NCBI RefSeq assembly: GCF_965641715.1
Contig: NZ_OZ282453.1
Source: Escherichia coli
Lineage (GTDB): Bacteria > Pseudomonadota > Gammaproteobacteria > Enterobacterales > Enterobacteriaceae
Length of the DNA: 64,000 bases
Reading direction: 5' to 3' (one strand)
Shown: positions 52,701 to 55,700 of the stretch, piece after piece
How positions within the stretch are numbered: the stretch's first letter is position 1
How the letters are laid out: the number at the start of each line of letters is the position of its first letter
Program-made: the position numbers

Positions 52701-55700
52701 CATCTCCGGAACGCTGCAACTGAGCAACATACGCAATCTGCTCCGCCGTCACGTTATGGAACTGACGTGCCATCGCTGTCAGTCCCGACGTCGGGTCTGT
52801 GGTCAGCTTCCCGAAGGCTTCAGCGACCTTGTCCACCTCCACGCCGGATGCAGAGGAGAAACGCGCCACACTCTGGCTGATCGCCTCAAACTGCTCACCA
52901 CCACGCACACCGGCATTCACCAGCGCCGTCAGTGACTCGCTGGTCTGGTTAAACGTCAGCCCTGCCGCCTGCCCGGCTCTGGACAGGACCAGCATGCGAT
53001 CTGCCGTCAGACCCGACTGATTGCCGGAAAGGACCAGCGTTTTGTTGAAATCGGACAGGGTTGAGTTGCCCTGATACCAGGCATACGCCAGCGCACCGGT
53101 CGCCACTGCCAGCGAGGTGGCCCCGACCATCGGCAGGGTGATCGCACCGGCAAGTCCCCTGAACATGGGGATCATACCGCCGAAGGAGTCCTTCACCTGA
53201 CCACCCTGTTGCAGCAGGATCAGCCACGGACTCTGCCCGCCTGCAAGCTGCGTGGCCACGTCGGTGAACTGTGCAGGAAGCATACGCATGGCGGCTTTAT
53301 ACTGTCCGACGGAAATCCCCGCTTTCTGTGCAGCCAGCGCCTGCCGGTTCATTGACTGTTCAACGACTGCCGCTGTTTTTTTCGCATCACTTTCCGTACC
53401 GGAAAAATGACGCCTGACTCTGGCCATCTGCTCGTCAAATCTGGCCGCATCCAGACTTAAATCAACGACCAGATCGCCTACCGGTTCAGCCATACCGGAC
53501 TCCTCCTGCGATCCCTTCTGATACTGTCATCAGCATTACGTCATCCTCCGTCATGCCCGCCACATCCGGGGAAGCGGGGATAACTTCATTCCCGTCCGGG
53601 TCAAAGCGGACGCCTCCGGCAAGCCCTGCCGCTTTCTGCATCAGCACATCATCTTCAGGCTCTTCGTCAGCCTCACGCCGGTTCAGCAGACTGAAATCCA
53701 GCGGATGCATATCCGGATCGCTGAAAAACAGGCTGAGCACGGTGTACGTCAGCCCGGAAAAGTGCATATCCAGCAGAACATCATGAAAATAATGGGTACT
53801 GTAAAAGCGGTGCCAGTCGGCATACTCCGTGGATGACATCCCGGCAAGCATGGCGCGCCAGTCGGGTCGCCCCATCTCACGCGCCAGTTTCAGGGCAAAA
53901 CTCAGCTCACCGTCGAACACTTTCCCGCAGAAACAGGCTCTGCAGGCCCGGCGTCATCTGCCTGTTCAGGTGCATCATTCACAACAAACTCAGACATACC
54001 GGACAGACGCATTACCACATTTTCAGCCTGAGCAATTGCCTCTGTGGGCCAGGTGGTAAGCACTTCCTGCTCAATTTGTTTAACGGCTTCATTCATGGAT
54101 GGCATCTTTGTCTTCTGCGGATGGTTATGCCACAGGGACATCGCCACCAGAAAAGCACCGGTTCTGACGAGATCTTCCACGCTCACCTGTCGATTGACAC
54201 TGGAGCCCGCCTGTTCTGCCTGTCGTTTCAGCAGGGCGAGATGCTCAATACGCTGCAGGGCTGACAGTTCAGAAAGCGTGACGCTCACACCGTTATATTC
54301 AAATGATTCGGTTTTCAGGAACATCGCTGACTCTCCGGATTAACTGTCGGTGACGGTGATTTCTGCAACCGCAGCAAGTTCACCATTACCGGATACAACC
54401 GGAATGTTGACCTTGCCTGCAGCAACGCCGTTCACGGTGATGGTCATACCGCTGACCGACACGGTGGCTTTTGTTTTATCCGCAGACACCGCACGGAAGC
54501 TCTTGTCGGTTGCGCCCTCCGGCTGGAATGCCACGGTCAGCGTGGTGCTCTGCCCTTTCACCACCGAAGTGCTGGCAGGCGTCACGGTCATGCCGGTTGC
54601 CGCTGTTACCGTGCTGCGATCTTCTGCCATCGACGGACGCCCCACGTTGGTGACTTTCACCGTGCGGGTGATCACTTCCTTCGCCGTCACCGCCTTACCG
54701 ATACTGCTGACCCAGCCGCGGAACACATCGACCGTGCCGTTCGGGAAGCGGATTTTATAGGCACGGGTATCCCCTTCATTAAACCACGCCAGCAGCGCCT
54801 GCTGCCCCTGCTCTCCGGGCATCCACGCCAGCGTGAAGCTGGTATCTCCGGCAGATTTCTGCCCCTGCCCGGTCGCAGTCCAGTCCGCATCTTCATCATC
54901 GAGATAGCTGTCGTCACAGGACTCAGCGGTCAGTTCGCCGGGCGTCAGGTCTTTAACTTTTGCCAGACGCAACCAGTCAACGTCTGAAAGCGGATTCGCA
55001 TAAGGGTTACCGCTCCCCTTATAAACCCACAGGGTGGTCCCGGCACCTTTCACCGGCATTACAGGATTTGGTACAGGCATAGCGTCCTCACATTTCATAG
55101 GTAATGACATAAGTCAGATCGGCTGAACTCCACAGGCCCGCATCATCGTCGCGCCGGTAGTCATAGCCGCTGGCCACCATACTGGTGATCAAATCTGACA
55201 GTGCCGGGATATCACTCATCACCGGATAAATCCGGGACTCCATCCACGCATCCAGCTCTGAATCCGGCACCTGAGCAGGCAGGAAAACTTCAATATGCAA
55301 CTCCGCCTGCCAGGTATCGCTGTCCAGCTCTTCGCCCGTGTATTCAGCGCCGGTGAGATAAACGGCAATTGCCGGAAAATCCGCCTCATCAAAAACAGCG
55401 GGGCGACCATCAAAAAGCGTCGCCCCGGTGTCATGCTTCTCCAGTGCATCCAGTACGGCTGCACGGAGTTCAGTATGTTTCATCGCTTTATTACCATTCT
55501 CAGTTGATGCTGCAGCGCATAGCCCAGCTCTTTCGGAAGACGTTCACGCCGTATCCGCTCAATATTCTGTTTAAACGCCGTGGTCAGCGGCACCGCCATC
55601 GGGATTTTCACCACATCAATGGGGTAACGGTTTTTCCCGGCCACACGCTGCATGACATGCCAGCGGCCATTTTTCAGTTGCTGAATAAACGCGCCGGGAA

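What the first reader, a model, noticed from the sequence alone, without database searches (positions are those of the whole stretch)
53902..53930. Conserved G/GT programmed -1 frameshift signal
The heptamer G GGA AAG sits five codons before the G stop, and the -1 frame continues for 144 codons (T). This is the classical lambda tail-chaperone frameshift and shows the tail module is organised for correct G:GT stoichiometry. It also means T must not be annotated as an independent gene.
Basis: partly seen in the sequence, partly recalled or inferred. Interest (0 to 1): 0.3.

Follow-up and report, generated by a model that had tools for sequence, protein, structure and literature searches.

The report
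Lambda tail-chaperone G/GT frameshift site
This is the textbook phage-lambda "slippery" site that makes a small share of ribosomes shift back one base and fuse tail-chaperone G to T, found intact in a lambda-like prophage of E. coli; it is real but ordinary.

Summary
Gene G (54324..53902, 140 aa) carries the in-phase heptamer G_GGA_AAG at 53926..53920, five codons before its TGA stop. The -1 frame is open from 53953 to the stop at 53488..53486, which is 144 codons counted from 53920. The predicted fusion protein is 279 aa, the same length as lambda gpGT, and the heptamer sits at the same nucleotide index as in lambda. The G-T DNA is 94% identical to lambda. G and T match the lambda G and T equivalog models, and they lie between the tail-tube gene V and the tape-measure gene H.

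The heptamer alone occurs at chance frequency in the window. Context and conservation carry the case. All 90 related loci keep a slippery heptamer at the homologous site (GGGAAAG, AAAAAAG or GGAAAAG). In 40 of the 90, the codon databases call the "T start" is not a start codon. T has no usable ribosome-binding site.

A predicted hairpin 8 nt downstream is thermodynamically stable, but comparative tests do not support a function for it.

Verdict: a known mechanism in a near-copy of the lambda locus. Interest is low.

The parts
53902..54324 (-). Gene G, tail assembly chaperone gpG (140 aa). This is the zero-frame product, ending at TGA 53904..53902.
   Evidence: ORF listed. Pfam PF06894 E=7e-56. 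NCBIfam TIGR01674 phage_lambda_G equivalog E=2e-60. SD GGAG 7 nt upstream, -6.6 kcal/mol.
53920..53926 (-). Slippery heptamer G_GGA_AAG, in phase with G, five codons before the G stop.
   Evidence: Same index (398 from the G ATG) as in lambda NC_001416. A slip heptamer is kept at the homologous site in 90/90 related loci.
53905..53953 (-). G/T overlap: 49 nt in which the -1 frame is already open before the G stop. A -1 shift gives a G-T fusion only within this stretch.
   Evidence: Stop map of the three frames. There are no start-type codons in the -1 frame upstream of the heptamer.
53486..53920 (-). T segment: the -1 frame, 144 codons plus stop. It encodes the T domain of gpGT and is not an independent gene.
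   Evidence: Pfam PF06223 E=2e-14. TIGR01715 phage_lam_T E=1e-55, aligned from residue 5. Weak, mis-spaced SD (-4.3 kcal/mol at 1 nt). The start codon is not conserved.
53486..54324 (-). Predicted gpGT fusion CDS, join(54324..53920, 53920..53486), 279 aa. Base 53920 is read twice.
   Evidence: Constructed: 279 aa, the same length as lambda gpGT, with 259/280 aligned positions identical (279 residues plus the stop). It hits both the G and T equivalog models.
54340..55080 (-). Gene V, major tail tube protein (246 aa from the MPVPN start), immediately upstream of G.
   Evidence: PF16461 E=6e-70 plus a Big_2 domain. Same order as lambda V-G-T-H.
50914..53493 (-). Gene H, tape measure protein (859 aa). 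Its start overlaps the end of T by 8 nt, as in lambda.
   Evidence: PF06791 E=2e-70 and PF09718 E=4e-21. Strong SD, -10.3 kcal/mol. Lambda coordinates.
53843..53911 (-). Candidate downstream RNA structure that starts 8 nt after the heptamer. The outer 7-bp helix pairs 53911..53905 with 53849..53843. The inner GC-rich hairpin pairs 53886..53871 with 53866..53851. Its function is unproven.
   Evidence: MFE -40.6 kcal/mol, z = -3.05. Consensus fold. Pair counts are inconclusive. Synonymous-site suppression is not localised to it.

Best explanation
This is the programmed -1 ribosomal frameshift site of a lambda-type tail assembly chaperone gene pair, inside a lambda-like prophage of an E. coli chromosome. 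Ribosomes start at the G ATG (54324). Most read G_GGA_AAG in frame and stop five codons later, giving gpG (140 aa). A small share slip back one base on the heptamer. [quoted passage not shown] This yields gpGT (279 aa). By analogy with lambda, the shared G part binds the tape measure protein H. The T part recruits the tail tube protein V. The low frameshift rate sets a high gpG:gpGT ratio that correct tail assembly needs. Shown here: the sequence anatomy, the homology, the synteny, the conservation of the slip site, and the lack of an independent T start. Inferred from published lambda work: the slippage itself, its roughly 4% rate, and the chaperone roles.
For: The anatomy matches lambda base for base around the site. 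The G-T DNA is 787/839 identical to lambda, and the heptamer is at the same index. G and T pass the curated equivalog cut-offs TIGR01674 and TIGR01715, and the fusion hits both; Pfam agrees. The gene order V-G-T-H and the 8-nt T/H overlap are as in lambda. The 1-kb region is 98.6% identical to isolated phages ev099 and PhiR11_1. The whole 21-kb head-tail module is about 96-97% identical to isolated phages. In 90 related loci (36 distinct sequences) a slippery heptamer is always at the homologous site: 81 GGGAAAG, 5 AAAAAAG and 4 GGAAAAG. The zero-frame stop follows 5 codons later in 89 of them. The codon annotated as the T start is GTG in only 50/90 loci and a non-start codon in 40/90. The T profile aligns from residue 5 of the -1 frame. 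The SD strength is -4.3 kcal/mol at 1-nt spacing for T, against -6.6 for G, -10.3 for H and -10.8 for M. Literature: lambda G-T frameshifts on G_GGA_AAG, is read in frame about 96% of the time, gives a 30:1 ratio critical for tail assembly, and depends on tRNA-Lys(UUU) modification (PMC3296357, PMC5009743, PMC7618472).
Against: Nothing in the sequence argues against it. There is no direct evidence of expression for this prophage: only its late region lies in the window, so its inducibility is unknown. The heptamer by itself occurs at chance frequency. The frameshift rate cannot be read from sequence.
Confidence: 0.95

Rival explanations
1. T is an independent gene translated from the GTG at 53920, as RefSeq lambda and PGAP annotate it, and the heptamer is incidental.
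For: A GTG sits at 53920 and opens a 144-codon ORF. Many database records list T as a separate CDS.
Against: There is no usable Shine-Dalgarno: -4.3 kcal/mol at 1-nt spacing, against -6.6 to -10.8 for neighbouring genes. The codon at that position is not a start in 40/90 relatives, yet the T domain is conserved from residue 5. Published lambda work attributes T expression to the frameshift (PMC3296357, PMC5009743).
Confidence: 0.02
2. The fusion arises by transcriptional slippage of RNA polymerase on the A/G run, not by ribosomal slippage.
For: Homopolymer runs can cause RNA polymerase slippage, and some relatives carry A_AAA_AAG with six A's.
Against: The window has runs of only three G's and three A's. 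By established knowledge this is far shorter than the roughly 7-9 nt runs known to cause productive transcriptional slippage. All three heptamer variants fit tandem tRNA re-pairing in the -1 frame. The lambda frameshift responds to tRNA-Lys modification, which is a ribosomal effect (PMC3296357).
Confidence: 0.01
3. The signal is intact but idle: the prophage is cryptic, so G/GT is never made in this strain.
For: Only the late (head-tail) region is in the window, so the regulatory and lysis regions could not be inspected. In the closest genome, PEC41, the adjacent tail-fibre genes are annotated as pseudogenes.
Against: All head and tail ORFs from Nu1 to the tail fibre are full length in the window. 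The module is about 96-97% identical to isolated phages. This rival concerns expression, not the nature of the site.
Confidence: 0.25

Closest known systems
Bacteriophage lambda G / G-T programmed -1 frameshift (Levin, Hendrix & Casjens 1993, as cited in PMC5009743 and PMC3296357)
   Same: Same heptamer G_GGA_AAG at the same nucleotide index from the G start. Same five codons (CSTVS) and TGA after it. Same 279-aa fusion length, same V-G-T-H order and same 8-nt T/H overlap. 94% nucleotide identity over G-T.
   Different: There are 21 amino-acid differences in gpGT, nearly all in the G part; only two fall in the T part. The -1 frame is open 49 nt before the G stop rather than 61 nt. The locus sits in a chromosomal prophage rather than a free phage.
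Conserved tail-assembly-chaperone frameshift of long-tailed dsDNA phages (Xu, Hendrix & Duda 2004, cited in PMC5009743 and PMC10274946)
   Same: Two overlapping ORFs lie between the major tail gene and the tape measure gene. A slippery sequence lies near the end of the first ORF and yields a minor fusion product.
   Different: This locus is not a distant analogue of that class. It is a close sequence homologue of the founding example.
Variant slip sites in lambdoid relatives: A_AAA_AAG (VT1-Sakai and Stx1 phages) and G_GAA_AAG (N15, mEp213, LLS)
   Same: The slip site is at the homologous position, five codons before the G stop, and the T domain is homologous.
   Different: The heptamer differs. 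The G proteins are diverged, with BLOSUM62 local-alignment scores to lambda gpG of about 200-275 against 617 for the window copy. T is shorter (113-117 codons) in some relatives.

Membership tests
Lambda-type G/GT tail assembly chaperone with programmed -1 frameshift | The upstream ORF is a homologue of lambda gpG. | tested here: met
   PF06894 E=7e-56. TIGR01674 equivalog, 202 bits against a cut-off of 74.
Lambda-type G/GT tail assembly chaperone with programmed -1 frameshift | The downstream ORF, in the -1 frame and overlapping the end of G, is a homologue of lambda T. | tested here: met
   PF06223 E=2e-14. TIGR01715 equivalog, 186 bits against a cut-off of 77. Frame map.
Lambda-type G/GT tail assembly chaperone with programmed -1 frameshift | The gene pair lies between the major tail (tube) gene and the tape measure gene. 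| tested here: met
   V (PF16461) is upstream and H (PF06791 + PF09718) is downstream, on the same strand.
Lambda-type G/GT tail assembly chaperone with programmed -1 frameshift | An in-phase X_XXY_YYZ slippery heptamer lies inside the G/T overlap. | tested here: met
   G_GGA_AAG at 53926..53920 is the only in-phase heptamer in the 49-nt overlap.
Lambda-type G/GT tail assembly chaperone with programmed -1 frameshift | The slip site is conserved at the homologous position among relatives. | tested here: met
   90/90 loci and 36 distinct sequences, with three heptamer variants.
Lambda-type G/GT tail assembly chaperone with programmed -1 frameshift | T has no independent translation start. | tested here: met
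   Weak, mis-spaced SD. A non-start codon sits at the 'T start' in 40/90 relatives. The T profile begins at residue 5.
Lambda-type G/GT tail assembly chaperone with programmed -1 frameshift | A G-T fusion protein is actually made at a low rate (about 4% in lambda), and tail assembly depends on the ratio. | not testable with these tools
   Known for lambda only (PMC3296357, PMC5009743). Testing here needs a reporter assay, immunoblot or mass spectrometry.
-1 PRF sites with a 3' stimulatory RNA structure | A conserved, covarying stem-loop or pseudoknot lies 5-9 nt downstream of the heptamer. | tested here: inconclusive
   A stable fold starts 8 nt downstream (z = -3.05) and is kept in 97.7% of cells. 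Most of its columns are invariant. Only 2 pairs show compensatory change, and 29/500 shuffles match that. Low synonymous variation spans the whole T core rather than the hairpin.

The most novel reading that the evidence does not exclude
The GC-rich nested hairpin that starts 8 nt after the heptamer (53911..53843, minus strand) could be a real, conserved 3' modulator that tunes the low G:GT frameshift rate in lambda-type phages. Its 5' arm ends at the last sense codon of G. I found no such element described for lambda in the papers I could read.
Probability: 0.12. Interest if true: 0.3.

Novelty: already known. Interest (0 to 1): 0.07.

Why it matters
The practical value is in annotation. This prophage's T should be recorded as the frameshift extension of G: join(54324..53920, 53920..53486) on the minus strand, 279 aa. 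It should not be recorded as a separate GTG-initiated gene, which is how RefSeq lambda and PGAP E. coli genomes still list it. An intact site also suggests that the tail module is functional. It adds nothing new to the biology of frameshifting or tail assembly.

Tried and rejected
(1) Heptamer enrichment: GGGAAAG occurs 9 times in the window against 7.9 expected, so the motif count carries no evidence.

(2) Window-wide scan for the same ORF architecture. The only other hit, TTTAAAC at + 8717..8723, lies in shadow ORFs antisense to the 479-aa gene at 7697..9136 (-). I rejected it as chance.

(3) Upstream stimulator. Folding 53960..53870 gives z = +0.21, and no SD-like element is visible upstream of the heptamer in the sequence.

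(4) Downstream stimulator. It is thermodynamically promising, but covariation is inconclusive. The synonymous-site profile shows a broad low (ratio about 0.5) across T codons 127-213 rather than a local dip. This looks more like a recently shared, mosaic T core than an RNA element.

(5) Rfam gathering scan: nothing at the site.

(6) I tried to read Xu et al. 2013 (PMC3762263), but it is not held. Levin et al. 1993 is not open access, so I could not verify what it reports about flanking sequences.

(7) The search for related loci returned only close relatives with at least 62% identity. That limited the power of the covariation test.

Full report
**Observation**

The window's tail genes run on the minus strand. 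Read on that strand, gene G starts at 54324 (ATG) and ends with TGA at 53904..53902, giving 140 aa.

The sequence ...TCT GCG GGA AAG TGT TCG ACG GTG AGC TGA contains GGGAAAG at 53926..53920. It is phased as G_GGA_AAG and is followed by five sense codons and the stop.

The frame map shows the last -1-frame stop upstream at 53956..53954. The next one is at 53488..53486. The -1 frame is therefore open for 49 nt before the G stop and for 144 codons counted from 53920.

A shift of -1 on the heptamer gives a 279-aa product. The only omission is that the strand was not stated.

**Is it more than chance?**

The heptamer alone is not enriched: 9 copies in 64 kb on both strands, against 7.9 +/- 2.6 in shuffles. 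An in-phase X_XXY_YYZ (Y = A/T) somewhere in a 16-codon overlap has a crude chance of about 3%.

I scanned the whole window for the full architecture: an ORF of at least 100 codons, an in-phase heptamer in its last 20 codons, and at least 100 open -1 codons. Two hits came back. One is this site. The other is a TTTAAAC at + 8717, lying in shadow ORFs antisense to a real 479-aa gene.

So the architecture alone gives roughly one false positive per window. Homology and conservation are what decide the case.

**What it is**

- G passes Pfam PF06894 (E = 7e-56) and the NCBIfam equivalog TIGR01674 phage_lambda_G (202 bits, cut-off 74).
- The -1 ORF passes PF06223 and the equivalog TIGR01715 phage_lam_T (186 bits, cut-off 77).
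- The conceptual fusion hits both models.
- Upstream is the tail tube gene V (PF16461 plus a Big_2 domain). Downstream is the tape measure gene H (PF06791, PF09718). H overlaps the end of T by 8 nt, as in lambda.
- Against lambda NC_001416, the 839-nt G-T region is colinear with no indels and 787/839 identical. The heptamer is at the same index (398) and the fusion has the same length.
- The 1-kb region is 98.6% identical to isolated phages ev099 and PhiR11_1.
- The 21-kb head-tail module, from Nu1 to the tail fibre, is about 96-97% identical to isolated lambdoid phages.

The window itself is E. coli chromosome. It carries the MicC, RydC and sok RNAs and the nifJ/ydbK-ompN-uspF-ykgJ neighbourhood. 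The prophage's late region runs from about 41.9 kb to the window end.

**Conservation of the signal**

I took 12 annotated phages spanning 72-99% identity and 80 IMG/VR loci. Of these, 90 loci (36 distinct 100-mers) could be placed in register.

- All 90 have a slippery heptamer at the homologous position: 81 GGGAAAG, 5 AAAAAAG and 4 GGAAAAG.
- The zero-frame stop comes five codons later in 89 of the 90.
- The heptamer changes identity while the upstream flank diverges freely. The position and the ability to re-pair in -1 are kept. That is the signature of a selected recoding site.
- The N15 and LLS records explicitly annotate their sites as -1 frameshift sequences. The phage 434 record annotates the joined GT product.

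**T is not an independent gene**

- *No ribosome-binding site.* The best anti-SD pairing in the 20 nt before the GTG at 53920 is -4.3 kcal/mol at 1-nt spacing. The values are -6.6 for G, -10.3 for H and -10.8 for M, at 4-7 nt spacing.
- *No earlier start.* The -1 frame has no start-type codon between its upstream stop and the heptamer.
- *The "start" is not conserved.* The codon annotated as the T start is GTG in only 50 of 90 loci. In the other 40 it is GTC, GCA, GCC, GCG, GTA or GTT. The first possible start then lies at codon 10, 16 or 24.
- *The domain begins too early.* The conserved T-domain profile already aligns from residue 5. The domain therefore begins upstream of any conserved start codon, which fits translation as an extension of G.

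RefSeq lambda and the PGAP annotation of the closest E. coli genome (strain PEC41, same insertion context) still list T as a separate CDS without a join.

**Mechanism**

The following is inferred from published lambda work, not measured here.

- In lambda, G_GGA_AAG is read in frame about 96% of the time. In the rest, ribosomes slip back one base, bypass the G stop and make gpGT.
- Both Lys codons are read by tRNA-Lys(UUU). Under-modification of that tRNA raises frameshifting and lowers phage yield (PMC3296357, PMC7618472).
- gpG and gpGT are made at about 30:1 and are absent from virions.
- The G part binds the tape measure protein. The T part binds the major tail protein and starts its polymerisation (PMC5009743).
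- G_GGA_AAG is among the most shift-prone heptamers in E. coli (PMC5009743).

The window copy has the same heptamer and the same 30+ nt on either side, with only single-base differences. The same behaviour is therefore expected.

**A possible 3' stimulator**

The 90 nt after the heptamer fold to -40.6 kcal/mol (z = -3.05 against dinucleotide shuffles). The region spanning the site and its upstream flank is unremarkable (z = +0.21).

The consensus fold has two parts. An outer 7-bp helix starts 8 nt after the heptamer and pairs 53911..53905 with 53849..53843. It encloses a GC-rich hairpin built on GGCGCG/CGCGCC.

On 34 distinct sequences, 97.7% of cells pair, but most columns never vary. Only two pairs show changes on both sides, and 29 of 500 shuffles match that. 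The main compensatory change (G-C to A-U) is a single event separating the N15 clade.

I then profiled synonymous-site variability over 77 distinct GT coding sequences. The observed/expected ratio is about 0.5 from codon 127 to 213. That covers the whole conserved T core, with no local dip at the hairpin. This fits a recently shared mosaic segment at least as well as an RNA element.

I leave this as unproven. I could not read Levin et al. 1993 or Xu et al. 2013 to see what deletion analysis already showed.

**Comparison, novelty and verdict**

This is a near-copy of the founding example of tail-chaperone frameshifting. Every defining feature that sequence can test is met. Only production of the fusion protein remains untested.

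It is already known, and a specialist would not be surprised. The practical outcome is an annotation correction: record gpGT as join(54324..53920, 53920..53486) on the minus strand. The intact site also hints that the tail module is functional.

Interest is 0.07. The most novel reading not excluded is that the downstream hairpin tunes the frameshift rate (probability about 0.12, modest interest if true).

Noticed in passing
window 39033..40166 (+), stop at 39711..39713: The porin gene ompN appears to carry a premature in-frame stop (...SSDRTND* then VNHTAAGG... continues in the same frame). This leaves a 226-aa ORF, whereas strain PEC41 has a full-length ompN CDS (1134 nt, about 377 aa) that is 99.1% identical with no indels. 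It is likely a nonsense pseudogene or a sequencing error.
   Followed up: partly
window 53843..53911 (-): A stable nested hairpin is predicted to start 8 nt after the slippery heptamer (-40.6 kcal/mol, z = -3.05). Its 5' arm ends at the last sense codon of G. Comparative support is inconclusive.
   Followed up: yes
window 53486..53900 (-), GT codons ~127-213: Synonymous-site variability across 77 distinct lambdoid GT genes is about half the gene-wide expectation over the whole T core. It is above expectation over most of G and the T tail. This suggests the T core is a recently exchanged mosaic segment, or is under some extra nucleotide-level constraint.
   Followed up: partly
window 8717..8723 (+): TTTAAAC, a canonical slippery heptamer, lies in phase near the end of a 163-codon open stretch with 136 open -1 codons. 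Both frames are shadow ORFs antisense to the 479-aa gene at 7697..9136 (-). I judged it a chance look-alike.
   Followed up: partly
window 5150..5301 (+), 5861..5924 (+), 38688..38808 (-): Rfam gathering-level hits: sok antitoxin RNA (which implies a hok/sok locus), RydC sRNA and MicC sRNA. These mark the non-prophage part of the window as E. coli chromosome.
   Followed up: no
window ~41700..44317 (-); locus L093 17110..19714: At the prophage's tail-fibre end the window has an 800-aa tail-fibre ORF (41915..44317). In the closest genome, PEC41, the corresponding tail-fibre gene and a tail-fibre assembly gene are annotated as partial pseudogenes next to ykgJ/uspF. Only 1 of 5,426 E. coli genomes matches this junction over at least 80% of its length.
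   Followed up: no
loci L001, L003, L093 versus L002, L009, L012: Public annotation of the same feature is inconsistent. RefSeq lambda, PhiR11_1 and PGAP E. coli list T as a free-standing CDS. The 434, N15 and LLS records mark the frameshift or the joined product. Several Stx-phage records start 'T' at an internal Met, cutting off the conserved N-terminal part of the domain.
   Followed up: partly
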